Position numbers and translations under genes: made by a program. Below the pieces are notes generated by a model that was not told where the DNA came from, made no database searches, and saw only the letters and a program-made list of their open reading frames with translations. A DNA stretch of 41,011 nt from Enterococcus phage fHoEfa03, in the sequence record PV296018.1, one strand, 5' to 3'. Positions 1 through 33,709 of this stretch are shown here, piece by piece. Each line of letters opens with the position of its first letter. The first letter of the stretch is position 1.

Positions 1-11
1 CTTTCGCTTAA

Positions 12-195: not shown

Positions 196-257
196 ATTGG
201 TAGGGGAGTTTTTCTTTTAAACTAAAATATATAATGAAAGGTAGGTGACAAAGCCCT

Positions 258-371
258 ATGCCAGCTCCGAAACCTATTATGGTAAAAGATTTACGCACAC
301 AACAAACCAGAGCATTTAAATCACAGACTGAGGCAGATAGATTTTATAATAAAAAATCGGGCTATTTTTAA
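258..371 (+). CDS. Hypothetical 37-aa ORF (MPAPKPIMVKDLRTQQTRAFKSQTEADRFYNKKSGYF).
   Basis: ATG preceded by AGGTAGGTGA-like RBS. Below the ORF-track cutoff. No recognisable domain. Confidence 0.25.
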   Translation: MPAPKPIMVKDLRTQQTRAFKSQTEADRFYNKKSGYF

Positions 372-431
372 AGACGTCAAAACAAAGTTAGGTGGCAAGA
401 ATCGCCATTATGAAATTATTGAAGTTGTATA

Positions 432-466
432 GTTGACACCTCTTATATAATGTGTTAAGATAATAC
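432..466 (+). promoter_or_regulatory. Sigma-A-like promoter (TTGACA ... TATAAT / TAAGAT) upstream of the HNH-terS-terL genes.
   Basis: ttgacacctcttatataatgtgttaagataat. Consensus -35 with several possible -10 hexamers. Spacing is ambiguous. Confidence 0.4.
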
Positions 467-491
467 TATATTATATAGGAGGGATTCAATT

Positions 492-1001
492 ATGATTGAA
501 GAATGGAAAGATATTGAAGGATATGAAGGTTTATACCAGGTTAGTAATTTAGGACGGGTTAAACGGTCAAAAGGTAAGTATATGAAATCAGAAAGAATAT
601 TGATGCTATTTATAAATACACCTGGATATCTACAGGTGATGCTGTGTAAAAACAACAAATGTAAAAAATTTACAGTCCACAGATTAGTAGCAAACGCATT
701 CATACCAAACCCAGAAAACAAACCACAGGTAAACCATATTGACGAAGATAAAACAAACAACAAGGTTTCCAATCTTGAATGGGTAACAGCTAAAGAGAAT
801 GTAAATCACGGAACACGTAATGAACGGAGTTCAAAGAAAATCAAAGCTATTGATATAGCAAATGGAGAGTGGAATGACTATAAGTCAATAAGTGAATGTG
901 CGAGAGAGTTAGGACTCCACCAGTCAAGTATATCAATGTGCTTAAAAGGTAAACGTAAAACATCTGGTGGATACACCTTTAAATATAAGGAGGTGGACTA
1001 A
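492..1001 (+). CDS. Free-standing HNH homing endonuclease (NUMOD4-like N-terminus, HNH_3 core, C-terminal helix-turn-helix-like module).
   Basis: N-terminal EEWKDIEGYEGLYQVSNLGRVKR motif. Core HRLVANAFIPNPENKPQVNHIDEDKTNNKVSNLEWVTAKEN. One of five paralogous copies in the window. Confidence 0.8.
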   Translation: MIEEWKDIEGYEGLYQVSNLGRVKRSKGKYMKSERILMLFINTPGYLQVMLCKNNKCKKFTVHRLVANAFIPNPENKPQVNHIDEDKTNNKVSNLEWVTAKENVNHGTRNERSSKKIKAIDIANGEWNDYKSISECARELGLHQSSISMCLKGKRKTSGGYTFKYKEVD

Positions 1002-1475
1002 ATGGCAAGACCACGAAAATTAATCAACGCAACAAACAAACACTATACTGAAGAAGAACGTATTCAAAAACAAAAAGAAGAGGAAAAGTTATATAACTAT
1101 GAACCTTTAGACTTCTCATATTTTCCAATGGGATTGTTACGAGGTGCTTATGCAGAATGGGAACGAATTGGTAACTTCGTAGGAGATTTACCGCTTAGTG
1201 AGTTAGATTCACAGACCCTGGTTTCTTACTGTAACTACGTTTACTTATATAGTAAACTAGCTGAAGAGGTATCTATTGAGGGTGAAGTGACATCAGATGG
1301 CAAGCTAAACCCCAAAGTAACCGCAATGATGGGTTATAGTAAGCAAATCAAAAGCGCAACTAATGACTTAGGTTTAACTATCAATTCAAGATTGAAACTG
1401 GTAGCACCAAAAGAAGTAGAGGACGAAAGCAAAGACCCACTAGGTCAATTGCTTAAAATGCGTACACAAGCATAA
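1002..1475 (+). CDS. terS: Terminase small subunit (P27-family-like).
   Basis: ~157 aa. Sits immediately upstream of the large terminase and downstream of an HNH gene, the typical HNH-terS-terL arrangement of cos phages. Good RBS (GGAGGTGGACTAAATG). Confidence 0.65.
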   Translation: MARPRKLINATNKHYTEEERIQKQKEEEKLYNYEPLDFSYFPMGLLRGAYAEWERIGNFVGDLPLSELDSQTLVSYCNYVYLYSKLAEEVSIEGEVTSDGKLNPKVTAMMGYSKQIKSATNDLGLTINSRLKLVAPKEVEDESKDPLGQLLKMRTQA

Positions 1476-1482
1476 GATTTTG

Positions 1483-1491
1483 TGTTATAAT
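1483..1491 (+). promoter_or_regulatory. Extended -10 promoter TGtTATAAT (TTTTGTGTTATAAT) immediately after terS.
   Basis: Perfect TGnTATAAT. An identical tttgtgttataat occurs at 14279-14291. Confidence 0.45.
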
Positions 1492-1557
1492 GTATTTATG
1501 TAAAAGATATTCTATATTATTTGTATAGTATAATAATAGCGGGTATTATTATACAGG

Positions 1558-1640
1558 CGCAACTACTCCAATAGTTGCGGACATGTTAGCTAAAGTGTTG
1601 TTATACAGAAGGTCCGCTAACTGTATAACAACACTTTAGC
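1558..1640 (+). other. Structured non-coding segment: an 8-bp hairpin at 1558-1579 plus a perfect 20-bp stem (gctaaagtgttgttatacag / ctgtataacaacactttagc) with a 12-nt loop at 1589-1640.
   Basis: Exact reverse complements read directly from the sequence. No ORF spans this region. Confidence 0.6.
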
Positions 1641-1670
1641 ATTAAAGAATGGTTGCTGTGCGACCAATTG

Positions 1671-1725
1671 ACTTAGGTAAGTTTGTTATCCCCTTTGGAT
1701 AAACTCATGACCTAAGTCTTTTTAT
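1671..1725 (+). terminator. Intrinsic terminator or attenuator: nested hairpin acttaggt...acctaagt followed by CTTTTTATTT.
   Basis: 8-bp outer stem at 1671-1678/1710-1717, inner stem ttatcc/ggataa, T-run at 1718-1726. Confidence 0.5.
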
Positions 1726-1728
1726 TTG

Positions 1729-1737
1729 TGCTATAAT
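1729..1737 (+). promoter_or_regulatory. Extended -10 promoter TGcTATAAT just upstream of the terL RBS.
   Basis: tttgtgctataataatgataaggaggtaatacatATG. Confidence 0.45.
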
Positions 1738-1758
1738 AATGATAAGGAGGTAATACAT

Positions 1759-3483
1759 ATGAATAAGATTGATTATGTACAAGACTATATAGACTACGTA
1801 AAAGAAAATCAAATACCAATAGGTAATAAAATCAAACAAGCTATTAGACGACATGAAAAAGATTTAGAGAAGTCAAAAGACCAAGACTATCCATATTACT
1901 ATGACCCTAAAGAAGCATTAGAACCAGTGGTTTTTATTGAAATGCTACCAGACCCAAAGACACGCAAAACAAATAAGCTAGCTAAGTTCCAGAAGTTTAT
2001 TATTGCAATGATATATGGGTGGCGCAAAAAGAAAAACGGAATGCGCAGATTCAGAAAAGTATATATCAGTTTAGCACGTAAGAACGGAAAATCTATTCTG
2101 GTTGCTGGTATCTCACTATACGAGTTTCTATTAGGTCAATATCCACAGGCAAGCCGTCAGATAGTCGCCGCCGCCAACACCAAAGACCAAGCAGGTATTG
2201 TATTCAACATGTTAAAATCACAGCTAAAGGCATTGCGTGCAGTAAGTGATGGAACAAGGAAAGTAACCAAAGTTAATAAGAAAGACATTGAACACTTAGA
2301 AGATGAATCAACGGTTAAGCCACTATCAAGTGATGCAGATAGCTTAGACGGACTAGACGTGCTATGTGGTGTACTTGATGAGTATGGAGAAGCTAAAAGC
2401 ACAGCCATGATTGAGGTATTAGAAAGTTCACAGTCACAACAATTACAAGGTTTAATTTTGATTATTAGTACAACAACCAAAAACTTGAATGGACCAATGC
2501 ACAGCATAGAATACCCATTTATAACTAAGCTACTTAATGAGGAAGTGGAAGCTGATGCTTACCTTGCATTGTGTTGGGAAATGGATAGCCTAAGTGAAGT
2601 AGATGATGAAGCTAACTGGATTAAGAGCAACCCATTATTTGAGAATGCACAGTTACATGAAACAATGTACGAACATAAGGTTAACTCATTAGCAGAGTAT
2701 AAGGCTAAGGGTGACATGAGTGGTTGGCTAACTAAAGAGATGAACTTCTGGGTACAATCATCACAAGACAGTTTCATTGATAAAGAATCTTGGGAAGCTG
2801 TTAAACAAACACAACCGTATGACATAAAAGGTAGACCAGTTTATATAGGGCTGGATTTGGCACGTACAGGCGATATGACGGCTGTTAGTTGGGTGATACC
2901 TATTGCAGAGGAACGCAAGCTACTTCTTGACAGTCACGCTTTTATAGCCTCTGTGGGCGGTATTGAAGCTAAACAGATAAAAGATAAGATACCGTATAGA
3001 CAGTATGAGAACTTAGGACTAGTAAACATCAGTCAGCGACCAGATGGTTTGATAGACCATGAAGATATGTGCGAATGGATAAGAGAGTTCATAACAGAGT
3101 ATGACTTAGACCTACAAGGTATTTACTATGACGGACACCAAGCAACACCATCTGTAATCAACTTAAGCAAGGACTTTCCAGACAAACTAATTGAAGTACC
3201 ACAGCGCATCCAGTATTTAAATGCACCTACAAAGTACTTACGTGATGCAATTATCAAGGGTGAAGTGATTCAAACAGATAACCCACTACTAACTAGAGCG
3301 GTATATAATGCTATTATGCGTGAGTTTGCGGACAATATAGCTATTGAAAAGGCTATGAATCGTAACAAAATTGACCCTATAGATGCCTTAATTAATGCAA
3401 TGAGTGAAGCAATGTACTTTGATTATGAGTATATTAGCTTTAAAGAACTGATTGAAGAAGGTAAATTTGGATTTGGTGTATAA
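1759..3483 (+). CDS. terL: Terminase large subunit.
   Basis: ~575 aa. Position, size, and ATPase plus nuclease-type architecture fit terL. The likely true start is the ATG at 1759 (MNKIDYV) behind RBS TAAGGAGG; the ORF-track start at 1726 is probably too far upstream. Confidence 0.85.
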   Translation: MNKIDYVQDYIDYVKENQIPIGNKIKQAIRRHEKDLEKSKDQDYPYYYDPKEALEPVVFIEMLPDPKTRKTNKLAKFQKFIIAMIYGWRKKKNGMRRFRKVYISLARKNGKSILVAGISLYEFLLGQYPQASRQIVAAANTKDQAGIVFNMLKSQLKALRAVSDGTRKVTKVNKKDIEHLEDESTVKPLSSDADSLDGLDVLCGVLDEYGEAKSTAMIEVLESSQSQQLQGLILIISTTTKNLNGPMHSIEYPFITKLLNEEVEADAYLALCWEMDSLSEVDDEANWIKSNPLFENAQLHETMYEHKVNSLAEYKAKGDMSGWLTKEMNFWVQSSQDSFIDKESWEAVKQTQPYDIKGRPVYIGLDLARTGDMTAVSWVIPIAEERKLLLDSHAFIASVGGIEAKQIKDKIPYRQYENLGLVNISQRPDGLIDHEDMCEWIREFITEYDLDLQGIYYDGHQATPSVINLSKDFPDKLIEVPQRIQYLNAPTKYLRDAIIKGEVIQTDNPLLTRAVYNAIMREFADNIAIEKAMNRNKIDPIDALINAMSEAMYFDYEYISFKELIEEGKFGFGV

Positions 3484-3485
3484 AG

Positions 3486-3512
3486 AGTGCTTTAACTAGC
3501 ACTCTTTTTTCT
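3486..3512 (+). terminator. Intrinsic terminator after terL.
   Basis: agagtgct-ttaa-ctagcactct stem followed by TTTTTTCT. Confidence 0.6.
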
Positions 3513-3513
3513 A

Positions 3514-3717
3514 TTGTTTTGTGGTAAAATGGGGTATATAGGAGGGGTAAATATGCAAAATCCGGTATTGTTAGTAGTAATTTTCTACGTTTTAGGTATG
3601 CTATCACTAGTCACAGCAATGTTTTTCACTGGTTTAGTAGCTGGTTTAGTAGCCTTAGCAGTAGCATTATTAATTCCATCAGTAATCTTATACAAAGAAT
3701 TGGGAGAAGGTGAATAA
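3514..3717 (+). CDS. Small membrane protein (67 aa, two predicted TM helices).
   Basis: Hydrophobic segments LLVVIFYVLGMLSLVTAMFF and LVAGLVALAVALLIPSVIL. GGAGG RBS. Confidence 0.5.
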   Translation: MFCGKMGYIGGVNMQNPVLLVVIFYVLGMLSLVTAMFFTGLVAGLVALAVALLIPSVILYKELGEGE

Positions 3718-3721
3718 TTAA

Positions 3722-4873
3722 ATGGGAGTTTTTGTCGCACCTAGAAGCACAACAAAGCAGAACTTCATTGACTTTATCGAAAGCAGTGACATTTATTCAA
3801 CAGAAATCACAGGTGAAAAGGCATTACGTAATTCAGACATTTTCACAGGTATCAACATTATTAGTGGTGACTTAGGACAGTCAAAATTTAGACCAACTAA
3901 GAATAGTGAAGCTGATGAACAATTTCTAAAAATGATTAACAAACGACCAAACAATAAACAAAGTCATTACATGTTCATGTACGCAACAGTAGCAAACTTG
4001 ATTCTAAGCGGTAACTCATATGCATTAATCCACAGAGATAAATTAGGAGTAGTTGAGAGCTTGGAGTTTGTAAAACCTGAACAAGTAAATGTAATCCAAA
4101 ACGTTACAACAGGCGAATGGTCGTATGATGTAACAATGGAGTATGGTAGCATTATGTACAAATGTACACCAGAAGATATTTTGCACTTTAGAATTACAAC
4201 TGTAGATGGTTTCCTTGGTAGAAGTCCTTTACTATCATTGAAAGATGAAGTAGCTATGCAATCAAACGGTAGTAAGATTTTAAGCAAGTTCTTTGCCAAC
4301 GGTGTATTTGGTGGAGGTATCTTGAAACTAAAAGGCGGTTACGTTGATAACGAAACAAAAGCAAAAATCAGACAGGACTTTGAAAAGGCAAACGGTGGTA
4401 GCACTAACAGTAATGGTGTTATTGTCTTAGACGAATCAACAGAATTCCAAGAATACAAAATGAATACTGATATTCTTAAACTGATTCAAGGTAACAAGTT
4501 TAGTACACAACAGATTGCAAAAGTATTAGGTATTCCATTGAACCGCTTTGGTATGGAATTAGTAAACTCTACAGATAGTGGTGCAAATGACATCTATATT
4601 GCTTCAACTATTAGCCAATATGAAAGAGCTATCTGTGATGAAATTGAAATTAAAACAGGTAACGAGTTAGAATTAGACCTCACAACATTATTAAATGATA
4701 CCTATGAAGATAGACGTAAACGAGTTTTTGAAGGCAAACAGAATAAAGAGTTGCTAAAAGCAATTAAGACTAACGAAATTCGTGACTATTTAGGTTATGC
4801 AGATGTTGAAGAAGGTGAAGAATTAATGAAAGTAGATGAAAAAGAAGGAGTGTCAGCAAGTGAAGAATCTTGA
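3722..4873 (+). CDS. Portal protein (HK97-family-like).
   Basis: 383 aa. Lies between terL and the prohead protease in the conserved morphogenesis gene order. Confidence 0.8.
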   Translation: MGVFVAPRSTTKQNFIDFIESSDIYSTEITGEKALRNSDIFTGINIISGDLGQSKFRPTKNSEADEQFLKMINKRPNNKQSHYMFMYATVANLILSGNSYALIHRDKLGVVESLEFVKPEQVNVIQNVTTGEWSYDVTMEYGSIMYKCTPEDILHFRITTVDGFLGRSPLLSLKDEVAMQSNGSKILSKFFANGVFGGGILKLKGGYVDNETKAKIRQDFEKANGGSTNSNGVIVLDESTEFQEYKMNTDILKLIQGNKFSTQQIAKVLGIPLNRFGMELVNSTDSGANDIYIASTISQYERAICDEIEIKTGNELELDLTTLLNDTYEDRRKRVFEGKQNKELLKAIKTNEIRDYLGYADVEEGEELMKVDEKEGVSASEES

Positions 4874-5423
4874 AATTAGACAACTACAACAGGTTGAAAC
4901 AGTAACAGACAATATTGTTGAAGGCTACGCTTTAAAGTTTGATTCACCTAGTGAAAACTTAGGTGGATTCATTGAGTTCATAGATAAGCGTGCATTAGAT
5001 GGTGTTGATATGAGTGACGTTCGTATGTTCGTTGACCATGATTCAAGTAAGTTATTAGGACGGACAAAGAGTGGAACATTAACATTAGAGGTTGACGACA
5101 TTGGGTTAAAATTTAGAGCATTACTTCCTGATACATCAGTAGGACGTGATGCAATGGAACTAGTTAAACGCGGTGACCTTAGTCAGTGTTCGTTTGGATT
5201 CACAGTTGCTAAAGATGAATGGCGCAAAGCTGATGGAATAAATCACAGAACTATCAAACAAATCAAGTCACTATTTGAAATCTCACTGGTTTCAATTCCA
5301 GCATATGCAGACACAGATGTTAGTGTGGCTAAACGTTCATTAGAACAAATGGAAGAGGAAGCAAAACAATTTCAAAAGCGTAAACTAGAATTAGAATTAA
5401 ACCTATTAGGGTTATACAAGTAA
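4836..5423 (+). CDS. Prohead maturation protease (HK97 / S78-family-like).
   Basis: ~190 aa gene between portal and capsid. The real start may be the GTG at 4860 behind an AAGGAG RBS. Confidence 0.7.
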   Translation: MKKKECQQVKNLEIRQLQQVETVTDNIVEGYALKFDSPSENLGGFIEFIDKRALDGVDMSDVRMFVDHDSSKLLGRTKSGTLTLEVDDIGLKFRALLPDTSVGRDAMELVKRGDLSQCSFGFTVAKDEWRKADGINHRTIKQIKSLFEISLVSIPAYADTDVSVAKRSLEQMEEEAKQFQKRKLELELNLLGLYK

Positions 5424-5474
5424 CACCCACAAGTTCCCTTGTTCGTGATATACTATCTTTAGTAAGAAAAATAA
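5423..5474 (+). promoter_or_regulatory. Late promoter: box ACACCCACAA, 13 nt, extended -10 TGaTATACT, conserved leader ATCTTTAGTAAGAAAAATAA.
   Basis: The same architecture is found at 8484-8535, 9232-9283 and in modified form at 18861-18892. Confidence 0.55.
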
Positions 5475-5492
5475 TATTAAAGGGGTGTGCGT

Positions 5493-6740
5493 ATGTCACG
5501 GCAAGAACTTATGGAACAAGCACAAACTTTATTATCAGAAGGTAAACTTGATGAAGCTGAAAAAGTAATGCAACAAATTAAAGCTTTAGATGAGGAAAAA
5601 CCTAAAGAAGAAGAACGTGCAGTTGATAATAAAGAAGAGGAGAAACCAGAGGAAGAACCTAAAGCAGAAGATGCTAAGGACGAACCAAAGGAAGAACCTA
5701 AAGAAGATAAGGAAGAAACAAAAGAAGAACGTTCAGCAAAAACTGAACAAGATTTTGAAGAACCTAAAGAGGAACCAAAGGAAGAACCTAAAACAGAAAA
5801 ACGCTCACTAGAGCAAAAAGGAGAAGAAAATATGGAGAAAGTTATTTTAGATGGAAAAGAAGTAGAAAATAAAGAAGTGCGTGGATTCTTAGAATACTTA
5901 CGCTCAAAAGAAACACGTGCATTGCCTGAATCATTTGAAGGTGTTAAGTCTGCGGATGCATCAGCAATTATCCCAGAAGAAATCATCACAAAAGCTAAAA
6001 TGTTACCTGAAACAGTTGTTGACTTACGTAATATGGTTACACGTCAAAAAGTAACAAATGCTATGGGTAAATATCCAATCTTGAAAGCTAATGAAGCCGT
6101 GTTGGCATCAGTTGAAGAACTTAAAAAGAACCCTGATTTAGAAGGACCAGCTTTCGAAGAAGTCAAATATGAAGTTGAAACTTACCGTGGTCAAATTGCA
6201 GTAGCAGAAGAAGCTTTACAAGATTCTGATGATGACTTATCTGGAATCATTGCACGTCACATTCAACGTCAAGGTTTGAACACAGCTAACAAAGCTATCG
6301 TTACTAAATTAAAAACAGCAACAGCAGTAGCAGCAACATCAATTGATGACTTGAAAACACAAGTTAACACTGGTTTTGACCCAGCTTACAACTTAGAGTT
6401 TATTGTTTCTCAATCATTCTTTAACGCTTTAGACCAAATGAAAGACGCTAACGGTCGTTACTTACTAGAAGATGACATCAAAGCACCATCTGGTAAATCT
6501 CTATTAGGACGTAAAGTAACTGTTTTAGCTGATAAATTAATTGGTACAGTAGACGGTGACAAAGTAGCATTCTTAGGACAACCTGATGCATTCGCAGTCT
6601 TCTTCGACCGCGTAGACACAACTGTACGTTGGGTTGAGCATCAATACTTCGGTCAAGTATTAGCAGTAGCTATGCGCTTTGACTGTGAAGTCGTTGATAA
6701 AAACGCTGGTAAATATATCACTTTAACACCAGCACCCTAG
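5493..6740 (+). CDS. Major capsid protein (HK97 fold) with an N-terminal scaffold-like acidic EPKE-repeat 'delta' domain.
   Basis: Low-complexity N-terminus (EEPKEEPKE repeats) followed by a ~300-aa capsid domain. Sits in the capsid position. The ATG at 5493 has RBS AAAGGGGTG. The gene ends CCC-TAG. Confidence 0.85.
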   Translation: MSRQELMEQAQTLLSEGKLDEAEKVMQQIKALDEEKPKEEERAVDNKEEEKPEEEPKAEDAKDEPKEEPKEDKEETKEERSAKTEQDFEEPKEEPKEEPKTEKRSLEQKGEENMEKVILDGKEVENKEVRGFLEYLRSKETRALPESFEGVKSADASAIIPEEIITKAKMLPETVVDLRNMVTRQKVTNAMGKYPILKANEAVLASVEELKKNPDLEGPAFEEVKYEVETYRGQIAVAEEALQDSDDDLSGIIARHIQRQGLNTANKAIVTKLKTATAVAATSIDDLKTQVNTGFDPAYNLEFIVSQSFFNALDQMKDANGRYLLEDDIKAPSGKSLLGRKVTVLADKLIGTVDGDKVAFLGQPDAFAVFFDRVDTTVRWVEHQYFGQVLAVAMRFDCEVVDKNAGKYITLTPAP

Positions 6741-6804
6741 TACGCCACCTGTGGTAGGACAGGTGACACCAGCTGAAACATCAGCAACAATTGAATTATC
6801 GTAA
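6735..6804 (+). other. Conserved 3' element with a candidate +1 recoding site CCC_UAG plus hairpins (cacctg/caggtg and gctga/tcagc). The +1 frame encodes STPPVVGQVTPAETSATIELS and stops at 6802-6804.
   Basis: 63 nt match 9119-9181, downstream of the major tail gene, at 62 of 63 positions. Confidence 0.5.
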
Positions 6805-6808
6805 ACAC

Positions 6809-6840
6809 TAAGAGGTGGGGCATTCGCCTTACCTCTTTTT
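6809..6840 (+). terminator. Intrinsic terminator after the capsid gene.
   Basis: aagaggtggggcattcgccttacctcttttt. The aagaggt/acctctt stem is followed by a T-run. Confidence 0.6.
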
Positions 6841-6865
6841 AAACTATAAAAGGAGAGTGTAAATT

Positions 6866-7066
6866 ATGGCTAAAGTATTTAACGTATACAAGAAAACAGG
6901 TGAAAAGATTGTGACTGGACAACCCTCACCAGTAACAATCACTGGTTTAACAGCAGAAACACCATATAGTAAAGGTGATTTTCAAGTAACAGCTATTGAA
7001 GATGGAAAACCAGAGTCTAGTAAAGTAGATGTACCAGCATTCACTACAACTGCAACAGCTGGATAA
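6866..7066 (+). CDS. Small structural protein (66 aa). Possible Ig-like decoration or head fibre protein.
   Basis: PSPVTITGLTAETPYSKGDFQVTAIEDG has a beta-rich, Ig-like flavour. Strong RBS AAAGGAGAG. Confidence 0.45.
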   Translation: MAKVFNVYKKTGEKIVTGQPSPVTITGLTAETPYSKGDFQVTAIEDGKPESSKVDVPAFTTTATAG

Positions 7067-7068
7067 TA

Positions 7069-7092
7069 AAAGAGGGTTAAGCCCTCTTTTTA
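7069..7092 (+). terminator. Intrinsic terminator.
   Basis: aagagggttaagccctctttttaa. Confidence 0.55.
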
Positions 7093-7103
7093 ACTAAGGA
7101 GGT

Positions 7104-7406
7104 ATGATAATGTTAACATTAGCAGAAGTAAAAAACAATCTAAGATTAGACTATGATTTTGATGATACCTACCTACAAGGACTGATTGATACGAGTGAAC
7201 TATTCATCTTAGGAGCTATTGAGTTAAAGACCGCACCAGATGATAAACGATTCAAGACATTACAGTTCATGTTGGTTTCATTATGGTATGAAAACAGAGT
7301 ACCAGCAACAAGCGCATTACAACAACAAGTACCCTTTACAATCGTAGCAATGATTCATCAATTAAGGGGGTTACAAGATGCCACTGATACCAACACAACG
7401 ACTTGA
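7104..7406 (+). CDS. Head-tail connector (gp6-like DNA-packaging / connector protein).
   Basis: N-terminal LTLAEVKNNLRLDYDFDD motif typical of the gp6 head-tail connector family. Correct position in the gene order. Confidence 0.65.
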   Translation: MIMLTLAEVKNNLRLDYDFDDTYLQGLIDTSELFILGAIELKTAPDDKRFKTLQFMLVSLWYENRVPATSALQQQVPFTIVAMIHQLRGLQDATDTNTTT

Positions 7407-7713
7407 CAGAAAGATAAGTATCCAACATAAAACCACTCATAAGAACGAATATTATGAGTGGGTCACTGATTGGGAAACCAAGGGCACTATATGGTGTTCA
7501 GTAAAACAACAGTATTTCAAAGACTATAAAGAATCATTAGGTACTGTTTTAGAGGATACAACAAACTTCATTATCAGATACGAACAACAGATTCATATTG
7601 ACAATACTATGCGTGTTGTATACAACGGTGTTAACTATGACATCATACAAGTATTAGAAGGTAGCTTCCAACGTGACTTTACAACGCTTGTATGTAAGAG
7701 GGTGAAGGAATGA
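7378..7713 (+). CDS. Head closure / head-tail adaptor protein.
   Basis: 111 aa. Overlapping, translationally coupled gene in the head-tail joining block. Confidence 0.55.
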   Translation: MPLIPTQRLDRKISIQHKTTHKNEYYEWVTDWETKGTIWCSVKQQYFKDYKESLGTVLEDTTNFIIRYEQQIHIDNTMRVVYNGVNYDIIQVLEGSFQRDFTTLVCKRVKE

Positions 7714-8117
7714 GTAGTCCAAACTACGTTGACTTTTCACAAGTCTACAAGCGATTAGAAAAAAGCGGTAAAAAGGCTGACCTAATTGTTAGTAAGGCAG
7801 TGAATACAGCTGGTGAAAAAGCAATGAATGAACTAAAGCAAAATACACCACGTTTTAACGGCACAAAGTATAGTAGGGATGGTCAGGACTACAAAAAAGA
7901 ACATATGCGTGACCATGTTGTAATGAGTAAAGCAAATAAGAATAACCATATAGCAGAAGTTGGCTTTGATGATGATGTGGCATGGATGGCACACTTTCCA
8001 GAGTTAGGAACAATCAAACAACGACCACAAGGGTTTATACAAAAAACAATAAACAGTATTGAGAGTGAAGTTGCATCAATCATTCAAAAAGCATTGCAGG
8101 AGGCGTTTCTAAAATGA
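7710..8117 (+). CDS. HK97 gp10-like neck / tail-completion protein.
   Basis: 135 aa. Position and size fit. Start overlaps the upstream stop (ATGA). Confidence 0.5.
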   Translation: MSSPNYVDFSQVYKRLEKSGKKADLIVSKAVNTAGEKAMNELKQNTPRFNGTKYSRDGQDYKKEHMRDHVVMSKANKNNHIAEVGFDDDVAWMAHFPELGTIKQRPQGFIQKTINSIESEVASIIQKALQEAFLK

Positions 8118-8479
8118 GATTACCAATATTACAAGTAGCAGAAGCTTTAGAGCAAGCACACCCAGAAGTCAACTGGTTTACTAATGAAGTACCCACTGAA
8201 TTTCAAACATTACCACAATTACCAGTAGGTAGAATTGTAGAACTTGACGGACGGTACACAGAATATGCCAGTGCAGACCCTAATTATTTTGTAACACATG
8301 TTCAGGTGGATTTGTGGTGTGAGGACTTGAAAGAAGTTGAAAAGTATTACTTTGAAATTGACAAGACCATGCGTGCAGATAATGTGCAGTGCGTATTATC
8401 ACAACAATCGTATGACCCAGACCTGGAGGGTGCACGTAGAGTTATCAAACGTTACACAATCAGTCAAAGAGTTGTCTAA
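8114..8479 (+). CDS. Tail terminator-like protein.
   Basis: 121-aa gene immediately upstream of the major tail protein. Confidence 0.5.
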   Translation: MRLPILQVAEALEQAHPEVNWFTNEVPTEFQTLPQLPVGRIVELDGRYTEYASADPNYFVTHVQVDLWCEDLKEVEKYYFEIDKTMRADNVQCVLSQQSYDPDLEGARRVIKRYTISQRVV

Positions 8480-8483
8480 GTGA

Positions 8484-8535
8484 CACCCTAAAACACGTTG
8501 ATTAATGATATAATTATTCTAGTAAGAAAATATAA
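8484..8535 (+). promoter_or_regulatory. Late promoter copy: ACACCCTAAA box, TGaTATAAT, leader TATTCTAGTAAGAAAATATAA.
   Basis: Aligns with 5423-5474 and 9232-9283. Confidence 0.5.
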
Positions 8536-8557
8536 ACACTAAAGGAGAGAAACAAAT

Positions 8558-9124
8558 ATGGCAGTAGTAGGTTTTAAGAAAGCTATTATCAGCGTACCTA
8601 AAGCAGAAGGTTCTGGCGTTGATAAATACACAATTGATAAAAGCGGTGGCGGTACTATTGAAGCGTCAATTCAAGGAATTTCAGCAGAACAAACAACCGT
8701 TTATGCGTCAAACGTTCCAATTTGGGTATCAGCTAAAGGGGTTGGAGAGTTAACAGCTTCATTAAACGTATTTGACTTGTATAAAGACAACGTTTATGAG
8801 AAAATTTTAGGTATTGAACGTGGTGAAGATGGTATTGCAATCGTTGGCGAAGATACAGAAGCACCTTACGTTTCAGCAGTATTTGTTGCAGACGGTGCAG
8901 ACGGTAAAGAAATGTACTTTGGTTTAGTTAAAGGACGTTTCAGCCACCCAGAAATCGCATTGAATACAACAGAATCTGGTGGTACAGAACCAAACACAGA
9001 AACAATTGAAGGTTCATTTGTAACAGATTCACGTGGCTTCGCATACATGAGTGCTGTTTCAAGCGAAACATTAACACTTGATAAGTTTGTTGACAAAGTA
9101 AACAATATTAATCCATTGCCCTAG
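8558..9124 (+). CDS. Major tail protein.
   Basis: 188 aa. Sits directly before the G / G-T chaperone and tape measure genes. The gene ends CCC-TAG. Confidence 0.8.
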   Translation: MAVVGFKKAIISVPKAEGSGVDKYTIDKSGGGTIEASIQGISAEQTTVYASNVPIWVSAKGVGELTASLNVFDLYKDNVYEKILGIERGEDGIAIVGEDTEAPYVSAVFVADGADGKEMYFGLVKGRFSHPEIALNTTESGGTEPNTETIEGSFVTDSRGFAYMSAVSSETLTLDKFVDKVNNINPLP

Positions 9125-9188
9125 TACGCCACCTGTGGTAGGACCGGTGACACCAGCTGAAACATCAGCAACAATTGAATTGACTTAG
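9119..9188 (+). other. Second copy of the conserved 3' recoding-like element (CCC_UAG plus hairpins). The +1 frame encodes STPPVVGPVTPAETSATIELT and stops at 9186-9188.
   Basis: Near-identical to 6735-6797, with one A/C difference. Confidence 0.5.
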
Positions 9189-9214
9189 AAGAGCTTAACG
9201 GCTCTTCTTTTTTA
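9188..9214 (+). terminator. Intrinsic terminator after the major tail gene.
   Basis: gaagagc-ttaacg-gctcttc stem followed by TTTTTTT. Confidence 0.65.
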
Positions 9215-9231
9215 TTACACTGGTTTCACCA

Positions 9232-9283
9232 ACACCCACAACCACTAGTGTTTATGCTATAATATCTTTAGTAAGAAAAATAA
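9232..9283 (+). promoter_or_regulatory. Late promoter copy: ACACCCACAA box, TGcTATAAT, leader ATCTTTAGTAAGAAAAATAA.
   Basis: Aligns with 5423-5474. Confidence 0.55.
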
Positions 9284-9303
9284 CTTTATTGGAGGAATCA
9301 ATT

Positions 9304-9615
9304 ATGATTAAAATTACACTACAAAATGAAGAAGGAAAAAGTTTTACAGTCAAACAAAAATCAATTTCAACTCGTTCAATGCGTGAACTAATTAAATTCC
9401 ATGCAACAGTTGAAAAAGTTGAAGCTGGTGAAGTTGAAATGTCAGAATTACAAATGATTGATGAAATGATTCAATTAGTAGCTGATATGTTCATGGACCC
9501 ACGTGTTACATTTGATGCAATTCAAGATTCAATTACAGCTGATGACCTAATGCCTACGATTGAAGATATTTTCTCAAATGCAATGGGAAGCAATGACGAA
9601 GGAAAAAAAGCCTAG
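9304..9615 (+). CDS. Tail assembly chaperone (gpG-like).
   Basis: Acidic ~100-aa protein directly upstream of the TMP. The likely start is the ATG at 9304 behind GGAGGAA; the track start at 9289 is a TTG. The gene ends with an A7 slippery run before the stop. Confidence 0.7.
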   Translation: MIKITLQNEEGKSFTVKQKSISTRSMRELIKFHATVEKVEAGEVEMSELQMIDEMIQLVADMFMDPRVTFDAIQDSITADDLMPTIEDIFSNAMGSNDEGKKA

Positions 9616-9872
9616 GGGCTGATGAGTTAAAAGAATTAGAAAATACGTCATTCACAGAACAGTTAGAAAACTTTGATGACTTATATAGACAACTATTAGA
9701 AAGTGGTAATTGGAGTTTATCAGAGATAAACAATTCTGATTACTACTTTCTTTTAGATTTATTTAACAATCAGAAAGCCCCTAAAAAAGAGAAGAAGCAA
9801 GACCCTATGTCATTCTTTGGTTCAGTATTATCACCAGCAGAGATGGCTAGAGCGAAAGGAGAAGTTGAATAA
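9304..9872 (+). CDS. G-T fusion chaperone produced by a programmed -1 frameshift at AAAAAAA (9603-9609). The -1 frame is open for ~89 codons and ends at TAA 9870-9872, overlapping the TMP start.
   Basis: Poly-A heptamer read directly in the sequence. The stop-free -1 frame (SLGADELKELENTSFTEQLENFDDLYRQLLESGNWSLSEINNSDYYFLLDLFNNQKAPKKEKKQDPMSFFGSVLSPAEMARAKGEVE) exactly fills the gap to the TMP start. This matches the conserved G/GT paradigm of long-tailed phages. Confidence 0.65.
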
Positions 9873-12800
9873 TGGCAGATAAACCAATTGGTAACATGAA
9901 GTTTGGTATAGGTGTTGAGGGTGTAGATAATACCATTAAAACACTTGACCAGTTGCAAAGTAAAATGCGACAAGCTGAAAGTGCTATGCGTGCAAATGCA
10001 AAGGCTTTTGATGACGGTGGTAAGAGTATGCAAGGTTTAAGTCAAAAAACAAAAGACTTAAACACAGTAATGGGGTTAGAAGAACAAAAGATTAAGATTT
10101 TACAAAAGCGCAGAGATGAAGCCATTCAGAAATATGGTGCTGAATCTAAGCAAGTTGACAATCTTAACACTAAAATTAATCAATCAACAGCTAAGTATAA
10201 TGCATACAACCAACAGTTATCAAAAACAACAACAGCACTAGAGAAACAAGTGGTTTCTTCAAGTAAATACGGTAGACAAGTTGAAGCTAATAACAAGGCA
10301 ACAGAAAAAGAAGTTGCTATTGCCAAAAAACACGGTACAGAGATAGACGTTGTTAAGGCAAAACAAGAGGGTCAACGACGCAACCTAGAGATAATGAACA
10401 AGGCTGTCAGAGAACAGTCAAATGAGGTCACACAGTTAACTAAGAAGTATGGTGCTAACTCAACAGAGGTAAAAGAAGCACAACAAAAATTACAAGCATA
10501 CGCAAATGAAGCACGCAAAAGTGAAAAGAATGTAGATGCTTTAGGTGATGAACTAAAAGAAACAGAAAAAGCAATGAAGGGTGTAAGTACAGAATCAAAA
10601 GAAGCTAGTTCAAGTGCTAGTAAGTTAGATGGTGTGTTTTCATCACTTAAAAAGACAGCTTCTGGTGTAGGTAGTTCTATCAAGTCAGGATTTGGCAAGA
10701 TTGGTTCTGCTATTGGTTCAGCAACAAAAGGTGTAGGTATATTCTTAGGTGCTGGCGCATTAGGTGCAGTTGCAAACATTGGTTCAAAAGCGTTTGATAC
10801 TGTTAAATCATCTATTGATGGTGCATTAAATAGGATTGATACATTAAACAATAGTACACGTGCATTTGAGAACATGGGTGTAGCTACAAAAGACATCACT
10901 AAGAACATGGATAAGTTACAAGAGGCAACACGTGGTTTACCAACAGCCTTAGACAGTGCAGTGAGTAACGTTCAGTTGCTAACAGCTTCAACTGACGACA
11001 TGGGATTGTCCGTTGACGTATTTAAGGCAATGAATGATGCTATCCTAGGTTTTGGCGGAGATGCCCAAATGGTTGACAGCGCGGTTGTTCAGTTATCTCA
11101 ATCGTTCTCAAATGGTAAGGTAGATGCGCAAACGTGGAACTCAATGATTAACAGTGGTTTAGGACCTACCCTTAATGCCTTAGCTAAAGAAATGGGCATG
11201 ACAACAGGGGCATTAAAAGAAGGATTGTCATCAGGTAGCATATCAGTAAGACAGTTCCAAGACGCCTTAGTTAAAATGGATAAAGAAGGTGGTGGCGGTC
11301 TTAAGTCATTAGAAAAGATAGCTAAAGATAGCACACAAGGTTTTGGTACTGCAATAGCCAACATGAAGTCAGCTGTTACGCGTGGTACAGCTAAGATGAT
11401 TGAAGGACTAAACAAATCACTAGAGAAAATGGGTCTACCATCTTTCCAAGAGCAGATAACAAACACAGGTAAAAGGTTTGAAGCTTTCTTGGGTGGATTA
11501 GGTGACAGCCTACCTGAATTAGCCAAAAACCTTTCATGGGTTGGTAAGCTATTCAAGGGTACCTTTGATGTATTTGGAAAAGTTACAGGTGAAGCGTGGG
11601 GTTACTTATCAGACTTTGGTAAAAAAGTGGGCATGTGGGCAGAAAACATTAAACGCATCTGGAAAGGTGAAGGCATTATCAACGTTGGCGCACTTGGCTT
11701 AGACGCTAAGGGTATCAATAGAATTGATTCAGCAGTAAACCAATTCAAATCAGCATTTAGTGGGTTAAAATCATGGGGTTATAACTTTAAATCAGCATGG
11801 GAAGGCAAAGGATTAGTTGACCTAGACATGCTTGGTTTATCAGATGAAAAAATGAAAACAGTATCTGATGCCATTGTTGGTATTAAAGAATCACTAGGTA
11901 GATTTAAGGACTACATCAAAAACGCATTCACATTTGGTACTGGTGACGGTACACCAGCTGGATTCTTTGAAACATTAACAAAAGTAGTTGATTTTATCAC
12001 AGTTGAGGTTATACCAACAATTATACCATTAATTGACAAAGCCTTAAAAGCAATCACTAAGTTACTTGGTGGCGCTCAAAAGATTTTCAAATCAGTATTA
12101 AACTTCTTTGTAAAAGAGCTACTACCAATGATTATGCCAATTATTCAAGAGTTAGCAGAAGCATTAGGTAAGATATTTGACAAAATATCCAATTGGTGGG
12201 ACCAAAATGGTGACCGTATTGGTAAGGCAATTATGAACCTACTTACACTATTGAAACCAATATTTGCTATTGCAATTGAGGTTGTAAAATCATTTGTTAA
12301 ATCAGTTGTGGGATTCATTGATGGAATGGTAGATGTAATCACAGGTATTATTGATGTATTTTCAATGGTACTAACAGGTGACTTCACCGGTTTATGGGAT
12401 GCAATTAAACGTATCTTCTTTGGTGGAATCAAAGCCGTTTGGGAATGGTTCAATCTCATGTTCATTGGTAAGATTTTCAAAGGTGTTAAAGGACTAGGAA
12501 CATCAGTAAAAGGTACAATCAAAGGAATGTGGGATGCTGTTAAGAACTTCTTTACAAGTGGTGGAAGTAGTGCTGGTGCATTATTTGACAGATTTGGTGG
12601 AAGTATCAAAGGTATCGCAAACAACTTCAAGAATGCAATAAGTGGTACAGTAAGTAACATGTGGAATGGTGTTAAGAATTTCTTTAGTAGTGGGGCAAAT
12701 GGTGCTAAAAACATCTTTGATGGATTCAAGAATGGTATCAGTGGTATTGCTAACACTATGAAAAACCTAGTAAGTAACACTATCCGTAACCTTTGGAATG

Positions 12801-33680: not shown

Positions 33681-33709
33681 CTCATATCCTCCTTTTAATT
33701 TATGAATTA

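What the first reader, a model, noticed from the sequence alone, without database searches (positions are those of the whole stretch)
6735..6804. The same 63-nt element with a CCC_UAG shift-prone stop follows both the major capsid and the major tail gene
The major capsid gene (…TPAP*) and the major tail gene (…NPLP*) both end CCC-TAG. Both are followed by a stretch identical at 62 of 63 nucleotides: tacgccacctgtggtaggac(a/c)ggtgacaccagctgaaacatcagcaacaattgaatt, at 6735-6797 and 9119-9181. Everything around it is divergent.

The element contains a hairpin 6 nt downstream of the stop (cacctg / caggtg) and a second small hairpin (gctga-aaca-tcagc). A +1 slip of tRNA-Pro from CCC to CCU would append essentially the same 21-aa tail to both proteins, STPPVVG(Q/P)VTPAETSATIEL(S/T). 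Each +1 frame closes at an in-frame stop about 20 codons later (6802-6804 and 9186-9188).

This resembles the programmed +1 frameshifting at CCC_UGA, with downstream structure, described for the capsid and tail genes of Listeria phage PSA. Here the stop is UAG and the extension is short. Alternatively the element could be a shared mRNA 3' stability or processing signal for the two most abundant structural transcripts.
Basis: partly seen in the sequence, partly recalled or inferred. Interest (0 to 1): 0.85.

Follow-up and report, generated by a model that had tools for sequence, protein, structure and literature searches.

The report
Frameshift-delivered docking tag on capsid and tail
In this Enterococcus phage the capsid and tail-tube genes both end in a slippery CCC-stop that probably lets some ribosomes add the same 21-residue tag, and that tag looks like the missing first two strands of a small fibronectin-like protein encoded just downstream, suggesting a natural tag-and-catcher way of decorating virus particles.

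Summary
Positions 6735-6797 and 9119-9181 are 62/63 identical. Each starts at the CCC_TAG that ends the major capsid gene (5487-6740) or the tail-tube gene (8558-9124), and each carries a 21-codon +1 ORF closed just before a terminator.

The window is an Enterococcus faecalis Efquatrovirus. Comparative evidence strongly supports translation of the +1 ORF:
- CCC is 2.5% of Pro codons, yet it is the last sense codon in 39 of 42 distinct contexts.
- pN/pS is 0.45 in the +1 frame against 1.7-2.3 in the other frames.
- Homologous peptides follow capsid and tail genes of unrelated phages through other devices: -1 at G_GGA_AAG_TAG in EFC-1, -1 at A_AAA_TAA/TAG in Lactobacillus iLp84, +1 at CCC_AGC_TAA in Staphylococcus phi12, and in frame in phage 812 and Bxb1.

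So the peptide is what selection keeps, not an RNA 3' signal. The recoding resembles PSA and SPP1 and is not new.

What appears new is the payload. The tag aligns to strands A-B of an FN3-like domain, and the 66-aa ORF at 6866-7066 aligns to the rest. 102 of 213 retrieved relatives start at that same truncation point, and tag and truncated gene co-occur in every locus examined. I infer fragment complementation that docks ORF66 onto capsid and tail. Docking is not shown: AlphaFold2 did not place the tag.

The parts
5487..6740 (+). Major capsid protein gene (HK97 type), zero frame, ending ...ACA CCA GCA CCC TAG
   Evidence: Pfam Phage_capsid E 2.2e-27; 99.8% identical to the annotated capsid proteins of IME-EF4 and EFRM31
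6735..6741 (+). Putative +1 shift site CCC_UAG_U of the capsid gene (CCC 6735-6737, stop 6738-6740, first +1 codon AGU 6739-6741)
   Evidence: It is the only CCC codon in the gene, and CCC is 2.5% of Pro codons. CCC_TAG is conserved in 39 of 42 distinct contexts.
6739..6804 (+). +1-frame extension ORF (tag): STPPVVGQVTPAETSATIELS, stop TAA 6802-6804
   Evidence: pN/pS is 0.45 in this frame against 2.25 and 1.71 in the others. It is the top hit (22.8 bits, E 8e-6) of an independent tag profile among 1860 six-frame segments of the window. It aligns to positions 1-18 of the intact-domain profile.
6746..6765 (+). Hairpin CACCUGU-GGUAGG-ACAGGUG, 5 nt after the stop; possible frameshift stimulator
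   Evidence: -11.6 kcal/mol, z -1.9. Its four synonymous third positions never vary, against 12 of 17 variable elsewhere in the extension (Fisher p 0.02).
6812..6840 (+). Intrinsic-terminator-like hairpin plus T run directly after the capsid extension ORF
   Evidence: scan_promoters_terminators
6866..7066 (+). 66-aa gene (ORF66) encoding an FN3-like domain that lacks strands A-B (the catcher); RBS AAAGGAGAG lies upstream
   Evidence: phrog_341 E 1.5e-18. Pfam fn3 aligns residues 8-54 to profile positions 36-81 of 84 (weak). It aligns to positions 29-85 of the intact-domain profile. The AF2 model has pLDDT 84-93 and best matches Bxb1 gp30 and FN3 domains. The homologue in vB_EfaS-271 was detected by mass spectrometry (PMC7503890).
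8558..9124 (+). Major tail (tail tube) protein gene, zero frame, ending ...CCA TTG CCC TAG
   Evidence: Pfam Phage_TTP_1 E 3.2e-8; annotated as major tail protein in relatives
9119..9125 (+). Putative +1 shift site CCC_UAG_U of the tail tube gene
   Evidence: It is the only CCC codon in the gene and is conserved across relatives.
9123..9188 (+). +1-frame extension ORF (tag): STPPVVGPVTPAETSATIELT, stop TAG 9186-9188
   Evidence: Second-best hit of the independent tag profile (21.3 bits, E 2e-5); 62/63 nt identical to the capsid copy
9130..9149 (+). Counterpart of the hairpin, weakened here by the single A-to-C difference (9145)
   Evidence: -6.9 kcal/mol, z +0.44
9187..9218 (+). Intrinsic-terminator-like hairpin plus T run overlapping the stop of the tail extension ORF
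   Evidence: scan_promoters_terminators

Best explanation
The 63-nt element is coding sequence read in the +1 frame. When a ribosome reaches the last sense codon of the capsid or tail-tube mRNA, the rare CCC is in the P site and UAG is in the A site. A fraction of peptidyl-tRNA-Pro slips one base forward onto CCU, and translation continues for 21 codons: AGU ... UUA UCG, then stop. A hairpin 5 nt downstream probably helps at the capsid site. This gives two forms of each protein, a majority short form and a minority form carrying the tag STPPVVG(Q/P)VTPAETSATIEL(S/T).

The tag corresponds to beta-strands A and B of an FN3-like domain. The 66-aa protein encoded at 6866-7066 corresponds to strands C to G of the same domain and cannot complete its fold alone. 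I propose that ORF66 docks onto tagged capsid and tail-tube subunits by fragment (strand) complementation. That would decorate head and tail with the same small module, with the frameshift frequency setting how many subunits are occupied. In other phages the same truncated module sits at the N-terminus of proteins carrying other domains (Big_2 Ig-like domains, a Thr-rich linker, a carboxypeptidase), so it appears to act as a general adaptor.

Shown by sequence: the sites, the conservation, and the homology of both halves to one domain. Inferred: that frameshifting occurs and at what rate, and that the two halves bind.
For: Translation of the +1 ORF:
- CCC is 8 of 314 Pro codons. Two of the eight are the terminal codons of exactly these two genes, and both are followed by TAG.
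- CCC_TAG is present in 39 of 42 distinct contexts (67 copies), while the preceding codon varies: GCA 15, TTG 12, ACA 11.
- pN/pS is 0.45 in the +1 frame, 2.25 in the zero frame and 1.71 in the +2 frame. Serine TCA/AGT switches occur.
- tblastn finds the 21-aa peptide in 108 Enterococcus phage records, usually twice per genome.

Homologous tags reached by other routes:
- EFC-1 and IME197: -1 at G_GGA_AAG_TAG (tail) and at GCG_GGG_GAG_TAA (capsid).
- Staphylococcus phi12: +1 at TTA_CCC_AGC_TAA on both genes. Lactobacillus iLp84: -1 at TCA_AAA_TAA/TAG on both genes. Phage 812: in frame.

Split-domain reading:
- A profile built from 7 intact domains aligns the extension+ORF66 fusion end to end (1-85). 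The extension covers 1-18 and ORF66 covers 29-85.
- The extension adds 7.6 bits. 0 of 1000 shuffled extensions reach that score, and 13 of 1000 do when the two closest seeds are removed.
- A tag profile built without any Efquatrovirus or EFC-1 sequence ranks the two extensions first and second among 1860 six-frame segments (22.8 and 21.3 bits; next best 6.5).
- 102 of 213 retrieved relatives begin at profile position 26-31.
- Every locus with tags has a truncated-domain gene. IME-EFm1, KEN20 and PSA have neither.
- Proteins exist that start truncated and end with an orphan tag: P0089, P0115, P0142 and 812_155.

Solved complex PDB 9d93 (Bxb1): tail spike gp29 ends ...PPNVSALHVDVSATSTSITIT..., and tail wing base gp30 starts with the truncated domain. 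gp30 is reported to attach to the spike (PMC12646305). gp30 is the best structural match to the ORF66 model.

The ORF66 homologue was detected by mass spectrometry with a high protein score in a vB_EfaS-271 lysate (PMC7503890).

Precedent for the recoding: SPP1 CCCUAA +1 adds an FN3 motif at a 3:1 ratio (PMC6316719). PSA uses CCC_UGA and ACA_CCC_UCC (PMC5009743).
Against: - No experiment shows the extended proteins in this phage group. The published mass spectrometry searched annotated ORFs only.
- AlphaFold2 of the fusion did not place the tag: pLDDT 56-58 with no strand assigned when the alignment was used. The single-sequence model that did make it a strand is of low quality and found nothing in the PDB.
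- Pfam fn3 scores ORF66 below its threshold (13.4 against 25 bits), and Foldseek E-values are weak (0.009 or higher).
- The tail copy in this window has a weakened hairpin.
- PMBT2's tail tag contains an in-frame TAG, and one metagenomic genome has GCC_TAG instead of CCC_TAG. The tail tag therefore may be dispensable, or those records contain errors.
- In EFAP-1 and IME_EF3 the zero-frame stop is GAG_TAA. The likely shift site there (ACA_CCC_AGY, a few codons upstream) has a sense codon in the A site, and its distance to the hairpin varies.
- Co-occurrence was tested in only about eight independent lineages.
- I could not inspect the 9d93 coordinates.
Confidence: 0.6

Rival explanations
1. The +1 frameshift occurs, but the 21-aa tail works on its own or is a relic. 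In this reading it is the stump of a once complete frameshift-delivered FN3 domain of the SPP1 gp17.1* type. A terminator and a new start split the domain, and ORF66 now binds the virion some other way or acts independently.
For: The homology of the tag and ORF66 to one domain fits a fission event equally well. AF2 did not dock the tag. PMBT2's tail tag is interrupted by a stop.
Against: A relic should decay. Instead the tag is under purifying selection (pN/pS 0.45). It keeps its 21-codon length in 108 records. It is maintained on two genes at once in at least four unrelated lineages that use different recoding devices. It also exists as an in-frame C-terminal tag next to truncated-domain genes in phage 812 and Bxb1. 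The truncation point is the same in 102 proteins.
Confidence: 0.22
2. The element is an untranslated nucleic-acid signal shared by the two most abundant late transcripts. It could be an mRNA 3' stability or processing element, part of the terminators, or a recombination site. The +1 ORF would then be incidental.
For: Both copies lie at the 3' ends of highly expressed genes just before terminators. The first hairpin is moderately stable and its synonymous sites are invariant. The repeat breaks assemblies such as AUEF3.
Against: Substitutions follow the codon structure of the +1 frame only. The second hairpin is not conserved, and the first is weakened in this window's tail copy. No Rfam family matches. 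Unrelated phages keep the peptide, not the nucleotide sequence, and reach it from a different frame through canonical slippery heptamers. A protein profile built from other lineages finds both ORFs with E about 1e-5.
Confidence: 0.05
3. The capsid extension is joined in cis to ORF66 by translational bypassing (hopping) over the 61-nt terminator gap, as in T4 gene 60. This would make a capsid fused to a complete FN3 domain, so no trans complementation would be needed.
For: The extension stops 61 nt before the ORF66 start codon and a hairpin lies between them. Joined, the two halves make one domain.
Against: No matching take-off and landing codons are evident in the gap. The tail tag has no catcher gene downstream; the next gene is the tail assembly chaperone at 9289. 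In EFC-1 and phi12 the catcher gene follows the tail gene, not the capsid gene, yet both genes carry tags. ORF66 has its own RBS and start codon, and the homologue was detected as a 7-kDa protein.
Confidence: 0.03

Closest known systems
Bacillus phage SPP1 tail tube proteins gp17.1 / gp17.1* (+1 frameshift at CCC_UAA)
   Same: The last sense codon of the tail tube gene is a rare CCC overlapping CCU and is directly followed by the stop. A +1 shift gives a minority longer form (3:1 in SPP1) whose extension is FN3-related and surface-exposed (PMC6316719).
   Different: SPP1 adds a complete 87-residue FN3 motif in cis and only to the tail tube protein. Here the stop is UAG and the extension is 21 residues (strands A-B only). 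The rest of the domain is a separate gene, and the same tag is also added to the major capsid protein.
Listeria phage PSA Cps/Cps-L and Tsh/Tsh-L (+1 frameshifting at CCC)
   Same: Both the capsid and the tail gene of one phage use +1 shifting on a CCC proline codon: tsh at ACA_CCC_UGA and cps at ACA_CCC_UCC (PMC5009743; sequence checked). The sense-codon variant parallels ACA_CCC_AGY in EFAP-1 and IME_EF3.
   Different: PSA's two extensions are unrelated to each other and to the FN3 tag: a helical ...KVVELKEELDKRGI... segment and an acidic tail. The PSA structural region I examined (genome positions 1-14000) has no ORF66-like domain. Here the two extensions are the same peptide.
Ig-like/FN3 domains displayed on phage structural proteins by -1, +1 or in-frame reading (Fraser et al., as summarised in PMC5009743; T3 10B, Lactobacillus phage A2)
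   Same: A beta-sandwich module is added to a fraction of capsid or tail subunits, and evolution appears indifferent to the recoding route. I see +1, -1 and in-frame versions of the same tag.
   Different: In the known cases the whole domain is appended in cis. Here only a two-strand fragment is appended and the domain would be completed in trans.
Mycobacteriophage Bxb1 tail spike gp29 / tail wing base gp30 (PDB 9d93)
   Same: gp29 ends with a tag-like PPNVSALHVDVSATSTSITIT segment. gp30 begins with the truncated domain (33% identical to ORF66 in the structural alignment). The two are in one solved complex and gp30 is reported to attach to the spike (PMC12646305).
   Different: The tag is in frame, so no recoding is needed. 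The partners are tail-tip proteins and gp30 carries a carboxypeptidase. I could not read the structure paper or the coordinates, so whether the junction is a composite sandwich is a prediction.
Donor-strand complementation in chaperone-usher pili, and engineered split domains (SpyTag/SpyCatcher; split FN3 monobodies) - from general knowledge
   Same: An Ig-like fold lacks one or more strands and is completed by a short peptide from another polypeptide. That gives specific, modular attachment.
   Different: Pili donate a single strand between identical or similar subunits. SpyTag forms a covalent isopeptide bond. Here two strands (an A-B hairpin) would be donated, by the main shell and tube proteins of a virus, and their supply would be set by ribosomal frameshifting.

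Membership tests
Programmed +1 ribosomal frameshifting at CCC_stop (PSA tsh / SPP1 gp17.1* type) | A rare, shift-prone CCC codon as the last sense codon, with the zero-frame stop in the A site and a CCU overlap in +1 | tested here: met
   CCC_TAG_T at 6735-6741 and 9119-9125. CCC is 2.5% of Pro codons and is the only CCC in each gene. It is conserved in 39 of 42 distinct contexts.
Programmed +1 ribosomal frameshifting at CCC_stop (PSA tsh / SPP1 gp17.1* type) | A +1 ORF open across the shift site, without its own start signal, conserved and under purifying selection | tested here: met
   21 codons in both copies. pN/pS is 0.45 against 1.7-2.3 in the other frames. The peptide is found in 108 phage records.
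Programmed +1 ribosomal frameshifting at CCC_stop (PSA tsh / SPP1 gp17.1* type) | A downstream stimulatory RNA structure | tested here: inconclusive
   The capsid copy has a 7-bp hairpin 5 nt after the stop (z -1.9), and its synonymous sites are invariant (p 0.02). The tail copy in this window is weakened (z +0.4). No Rfam match.
Programmed +1 ribosomal frameshifting at CCC_stop (PSA tsh / SPP1 gp17.1* type) | Two protein products with a common N-terminus detected in infected cells or virions | not testable with these tools
   The published mass spectrometry of vB_EfaS-271 used annotated ORFs only (PMC7503890).
Frameshift-appended complete Ig-like/FN3 domain on a virion protein (Fraser class; SPP1 gp17.1*, T3 10B, A2) | The extension encodes a whole beta-sandwich domain (about 80-100 residues) | tested here: not met
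   The extension is 21 residues and covers only positions 1-18 of the 85-position domain profile.
Pfam fn3 (PF00041) | Score at or above the gathering threshold (25 bits) | tested here: not met
   ORF66 scores 13.4 bits, E 0.096, aligned to profile positions 36-81 of 84. The structural matches are to FN3 domains, but with weak E-values. An HMM built from ORF66 relatives hits tandem FN3 repeats in giant proteins. It is FN3-like but not a certified member.
PHROG 341 ('major tail protein', small N-terminally truncated FN3-like module, with or without Big_2) | A significant match starting at profile position 1 | tested here: met
   E 1.5e-18; residues 1-63 align to profile positions 1-64 of 154.
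Split-domain (fragment or donor-strand) complementation systems | One polypeptide carries an incomplete fold that lacks defined strands | tested here: met
   ORF66 aligns to positions 29-85 of the intact-domain profile. 102 of 213 relatives start at position 26-31.
Split-domain (fragment or donor-strand) complementation systems | The missing strands are supplied by a partner polypeptide encoded in the same genome | tested here: met
   By sequence only. The tags align to positions 1-18 (0 of 1000 shuffles reach the score). An independent tag profile finds only these two ORFs in the window. Tag and catcher co-occur in all loci examined.
Split-domain (fragment or donor-strand) complementation systems | A physical complex in which the two fragments form one domain | tested here: inconclusive
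   AF2 of the fusion left the tag unplaced. The Bxb1 complex 9d93 contains a tag-bearing and a catcher-bearing protein that interact (PMC12646305), but I could not inspect the coordinates.

The most novel reading that the evidence does not exclude
Many phages of Gram-positive hosts (Enterococcus, Staphylococcus, Lactobacillus, Mycobacterium) use a natural, genetically split FN3-like domain as a tag-and-catcher docking system. A roughly 20-residue A-B hairpin tag is placed at the C-terminus of a virion protein, either in frame or in sub-stoichiometric amounts by +1 or -1 ribosomal frameshifting. A family of proteins starts with the strand-C-to-G remainder and carries varied cargo domains, and these proteins snap onto the tag. 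In this phage one 66-aa catcher would decorate both head and tail through identical frameshift-delivered tags.
Probability: 0.55. Interest if true: 0.85.

Novelty: new variant of a known kind. Interest (0 to 1): 0.72.

Why it matters
If correct, three things follow.

1. About a hundred sequenced Enterococcus therapy-candidate phages, and many Staphylococcus and Lactobacillus phages, make unannotated longer forms of their two most abundant structural proteins. None of the five annotated Efquatrovirus records I inspected marks them.

2. It explains a puzzling class of very short frameshift extensions. It also explains small "major tail protein" genes that look like incomplete FN3 domains: they would be two halves of one fold.

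3. It describes a compact natural system for attaching modules to capsids and tails, a 21-residue tag and a 66-residue catcher, with frameshift frequency setting how many subunits are occupied. That is directly useful for phage display and for engineering phage surfaces. It also gives a sequence rule for predicting which virion proteins dock onto which.

The claim can be tested now by re-searching existing mass-spectrometry data and by inspecting one deposited structure, PDB 9d93.

Tried and rejected
- **AF2, single sequence.** The tag+ORF66 fusion gave a low-quality 7-strand model (pLDDT 72). Foldseek against the PDB found nothing significant, so this was uninformative.
- **AF2 with an alignment.** The accepted alignment had only three rows covering the tag. 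AF2 modelled ORF66 well but left the tag unplaced, so this neither supports nor refutes docking.
- **Concerted evolution.** Within-genome homogenisation of the two copies is not significant (p 0.08), so the 62/63 identity is not a general property.
- **Second hairpin (6772-6785).** One variant shows a compensatory pair, but several variants break it. I rejected it as a conserved structure.
- **Routine scans.** Rfam shows nothing at the element and the window has no tRNA genes.
- **PSA.** Its extensions are unrelated peptides and the PSA region examined has no catcher, so the resemblance to PSA is in the recoding only.
- **Translational bypass** from the capsid extension into ORF66: rejected (see rivals).
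- **EFap02's GAA_TAA_C tail context.** I first took it as evidence for a CCC-independent shift site. I set it aside because the same record has a homopolymer frameshift inside its ORF66 gene.
- **The search for related loci** with the capsid protein and with the ORF66 alignment returned only close Efquatrovirus relatives. The cross-genus cases had to be fetched one at a time.
- **The Bxb1 structure paper** (PMC12124961) is not held, and another mycobacteriophage paper was irrelevant. I therefore cannot say whether strand complementation between gp29 and gp30 has already been described.
- **Tag/catcher co-variation** within Efquatrovirus was looked at informally. Capsid tag type tracks catcher type, but the two are adjacent; tail tags do not track it. 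This was uninformative.
Full report
**1. The observation**

The two stretches exist exactly as described. Positions 6735-6797 and 9119-9181 are identical at 62 of 63 positions; the difference is A6761 versus C9145. The sequence diverges on both sides. Each copy starts with the CCC TAG that closes a long ORF. ORF 5487-6740 is an HK97-type major capsid protein and ORF 8558-9124 is a tail tube protein (Pfam). The +1 frame gives STPPVVGQVTPAETSATIELS* (6739-6804) and STPPVVGPVTPAETSATIELT* (9123-9188). Each extension ends a few bases before, or overlapping, a terminator-like hairpin with a T run (6812-6840 and 9187-9218).

**2. What the window is**

The region is 99.9% identical to Enterococcus phage vB_Efa_VP15 and 99.8% to LY0322 (genus Efquatrovirus). 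The 63-mer occurs in 105 phage records, all from Enterococcus and mostly twice per genome. In the five annotated relatives I inspected, neither gene is annotated with a frameshift.

**3. Is the +1 ORF translated?**

Four lines of sequence evidence say yes.

(a) Codon choice. In 35 ORFs of the window (10,647 codons), CCC accounts for 8 of 314 proline codons. Two of the eight are the last sense codons of the capsid and tail genes. Each is the only CCC in its gene and each is followed by TAG. Across 42 distinct sequence contexts (67 copies, roughly 30 genomes including metagenomic ones), 39 keep CCC_TAG. The codon before it varies freely: GCA 15, TTG 12, ACA 11.

(b) Substitution pattern. Among 20 distinct versions, pN/pS is 0.45 in the +1 frame, 2.25 in the capsid frame and 1.71 in the third frame. 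Serine is kept through TCA/AGT switches.

(c) Other routes to the same peptide.
- The temperate phages EFC-1 and IME197 have a different head module, yet homologous peptides follow both capsid and tail genes in the -1 frame. On the tail gene the peptide follows the classic heptamer G_GGA_AAG placed against the stop. On the capsid gene it follows a run of five G.
- In Staphylococcus phi12 both genes end TTA CCC AGC TAA with a +1 tag.
- In Lactobacillus iLp84 both genes end ACG TCA AAA TAA/TAG with a -1 tag.
- In the Staphylococcus myovirus 812 the tags are in frame.
- One Efquatrovirus metagenomic genome uses the phi12 context, TTA CCC AGC TAA, on its tail gene.

(d) Independent recognition. 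A profile built only from tags of other lineages and from intact domains ranks the two extensions first and second among all 1860 six-frame segments of the window. They score 22.8 and 21.3 bits, and the next best scores 6.5.

An untranslated RNA or DNA signal cannot explain (b) to (d).

**4. The RNA context**

The capsid copy has a 7-bp hairpin 5 nt after the stop (-11.6 kcal/mol, z -1.9). Its four synonymous third positions never vary, whereas 12 of 17 third positions elsewhere in the extension do (Fisher p 0.02). This suggests some selection on the stem. The single difference in this window's tail copy falls in the stem and weakens it (z +0.4).

Most other lineages have stable structures right after their own shift sites:

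| Site | z-score |
|---|---|
| phi12 capsid | -2.7 |
| iLp84 capsid | -3.1 |
| EFC-1 capsid | -2.1 |
| EFC-1 tail | -2.0 |
| EFAP-1 capsid | -0.7 |

A stimulatory structure is therefore plausible but not established. No Rfam family matches and the phage carries no tRNA genes.

**5. What the tag is**

The gene just after the capsid terminator (6866-7066, 66 aa) is annotated "major tail protein" in RefSeq. Its homologue in the close relative vB_EfaS-271 was detected by mass spectrometry as a 7-kDa protein with a high protein score (79.7) in a purified lysate (PMC7503890). It belongs to phrog_341 (E 1.5e-18). Its weak Pfam fn3 match covers only profile positions 36-81 of 84, as if the first third of the domain were missing.

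An HMM search of 1.84 billion representative proteins with an ORF66 alignment found 574 relatives. They include tandem FN3 repeats in giant proteins and many small proteins that start at the same point as ORF66. Where the domain is intact, the segment preceding the ORF66-like part resembles the extension closely. Examples are PPTVESVTPTDTTASIEM in P0122 and NITDTSATITV in P0183, against PPVVGQVTPAETSATIEL here.

I built a profile from seven such intact domains. It aligns the extension+ORF66 fusion end to end (1-85), with the extension on positions 1-18 and ORF66 on 29-85. The extension adds 7.6 bits. None of 1000 shuffled extensions reaches that score, and 13 of 1000 do when the two closest seeds are left out. 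Of the 213 retrieved proteins, 102 begin at profile position 26-31, so the truncation is a family trait. In a joint alignment, tags from five lineages align with strands A-B of intact domains and the break falls in the B-C loop.

**6. Co-occurrence**

Every locus with tags has a truncated-domain gene. It follows the capsid gene in Efquatrovirus and iLp84, and follows the tail gene in EFC-1, IME197 and phi12. IME-EFm1 and KEN20 have capsids 60% identical to this one, and both lack the tags as well as the gene. PSA also lacks both.

In phage 812 three neighbouring genes form a chain. Gene 154 ends in a tag, gene 155 starts truncated and ends in a tag, and gene 156 is the truncated domain alone. 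Several database proteins likewise start truncated and end with an orphan tag.

**7. A solved example**

The only PDB sequence match to the ORF66 family is Bxb1 gp30, "tail wing base", in entry 9d93, starting at its residue 6. The upstream gene product gp29, "tail spike" in the same entry, ends ...PPNVSALHVDVSATSTSITITPSGAVDDA. gp30 is reported to attach to the tail spike (PMC12646305; that text labels the spike gp22, but the PDB entry names it gp29). The alignment-based AF2 model of ORF66 matches gp30 best (probability 1.00, 33% identity, rmsd 3.2 Å over 70 columns). Classical FN3 domains come next, and then anastellin, which from my own recollection is an FN3 fragment lacking strands A-B. 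I could not open the coordinates or the structure paper.

**8. What is not shown**

No experiment demonstrates the longer proteins or the complex. AF2 modelled ORF66 with confidence (pLDDT 84-93) but left the tag unplaced (56-58), and only three alignment rows covered the tag. PMBT2's tail tag contains a stop codon and one metagenomic tail gene has GCC_TAG. These may be errors or may mean the tail tag is dispensable. In EFAP-1 and IME_EF3 the shift probably occurs at ACA_CCC_AGY, a sense-codon context like PSA cps ACA_CCC_UCC (PMC5009743), but I cannot locate it with certainty.

**9. Comparison with what is known**

Programmed +1 frameshifting at CCC_stop in capsid and tail genes of Firmicutes phages is established. 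SPP1 uses CCCUAA to add an 87-aa FN3 extension at a 3:1 ratio, and the extension is non-essential (PMC6316719). PSA, A118 and A500 use CCC_UGA (PMC5009743). Adding Ig-like domains by +1, -1 or in-frame reading is a recognised theme (PMC5009743). The recoding here is a new member of that class, with UAG as the stop.

The difference lies in the payload. It is only two strands, identical on head and tail, and the rest of the domain is encoded separately. In nine full-text searches I found no description of such a split-domain arrangement.

**10. Verdict**

- The frameshift interpretation is supported by comparative evidence (my estimate is about 0.9 that the tag is translated).
- The RNA-signal alternative is not supported.
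- The most likely function is a frameshift-delivered docking tag that completes the FN3-like ORF66 protein in trans (about 0.6).
- Novelty: a new variant of a known kind. The split tag-and-catcher reading would be of broad interest if confirmed.

Noticed in passing
window 5422-5479 and 9231-9288: A second shared element, 58 nt and 79% identical (AACACCCACAA...TATCTTTAGTAAGAAAAATAA...). It lies just upstream of the capsid gene and just upstream of the tail assembly chaperone gene. The second copy contains TGCTATAAT, an extended -10-like motif. It is possibly a shared late promoter or leader (family D9).
   Followed up: no
window 9289-9615 and on to about 9870: The tail assembly chaperone gene (Pfam Phage_TAC_19) is followed by a gap before the tape measure gene (9872). 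The relative Sigurd annotates a frameshift-joined second chaperone product here. The window therefore probably holds a third recoding site of the lambda G/GT type.
   Followed up: partly
L022 (PMBT2), about 6884: The tail-gene tag of phage PMBT2 has CAG changed to TAG inside the extension (STPPVVG*). It is either a natural truncation of the tail tag or a sequencing error. The change keeps the hairpin as a G-U pair.
   Followed up: partly
L018 (EFap02) about 2255-2290 and 4490-4510: The EFap02 record has a homopolymer frameshift (A7) inside its ORF66 homologue and an odd tail-gene end, TCC GAA TAA C. The record probably contains indel errors.
   Followed up: partly
L025 (Staphylococcus phage 812) 10819-12228: Three consecutive genes lie away from the head and tail modules. 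Gene 154 (annotated 'putative Ig-like protein') ends in an in-frame tag. Gene 155 is truncated domain + Big_2 + tag. Gene 156 is the truncated domain only. They look like a head-to-tail docking chain.
   Followed up: partly
L017 (AUEF3) 1-65, 38673-38892 and 41199-41257: The AUEF3 GenBank assembly is broken exactly at the repeated element: there is a gap after the capsid gene, and the record starts and ends inside the tail copy. The repeat confounds assemblers.
   Followed up: yes
window 5571-5800: A Lys/Glu/Pro-rich repetitive coding stretch (...EEPKEE...) sits near the N-terminus of the capsid ORF. It is likely a scaffolding-like delta region removed by the prohead protease (family D1).
   Followed up: no
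window 33687-34212; also 21044-21165, 27801-27922 and 29848-29969: There is a 263-nt tandem duplication (88% identical) and a three-copy 122-nt dispersed repeat in the early/replication region. Several repeated intergenic motifs containing TGTCAA(C/G)TGTTT also occur (families D2-D4, D6, D8, D10).
   Followed up: no
H24 (vB_Efs19_KEN07, PP582182.1): This relative has a homing endonuclease gene inserted within the capsid-to-tail region, and the match is split into two pieces.
   Followed up: no
P0077 (167 aa, metagenomic protein): A sequence unrelated to the FN3-like domain is fused to the C-terminal 46 residues of an ORF66 homologue. It is most likely an assembly chimera.
   Followed up: no
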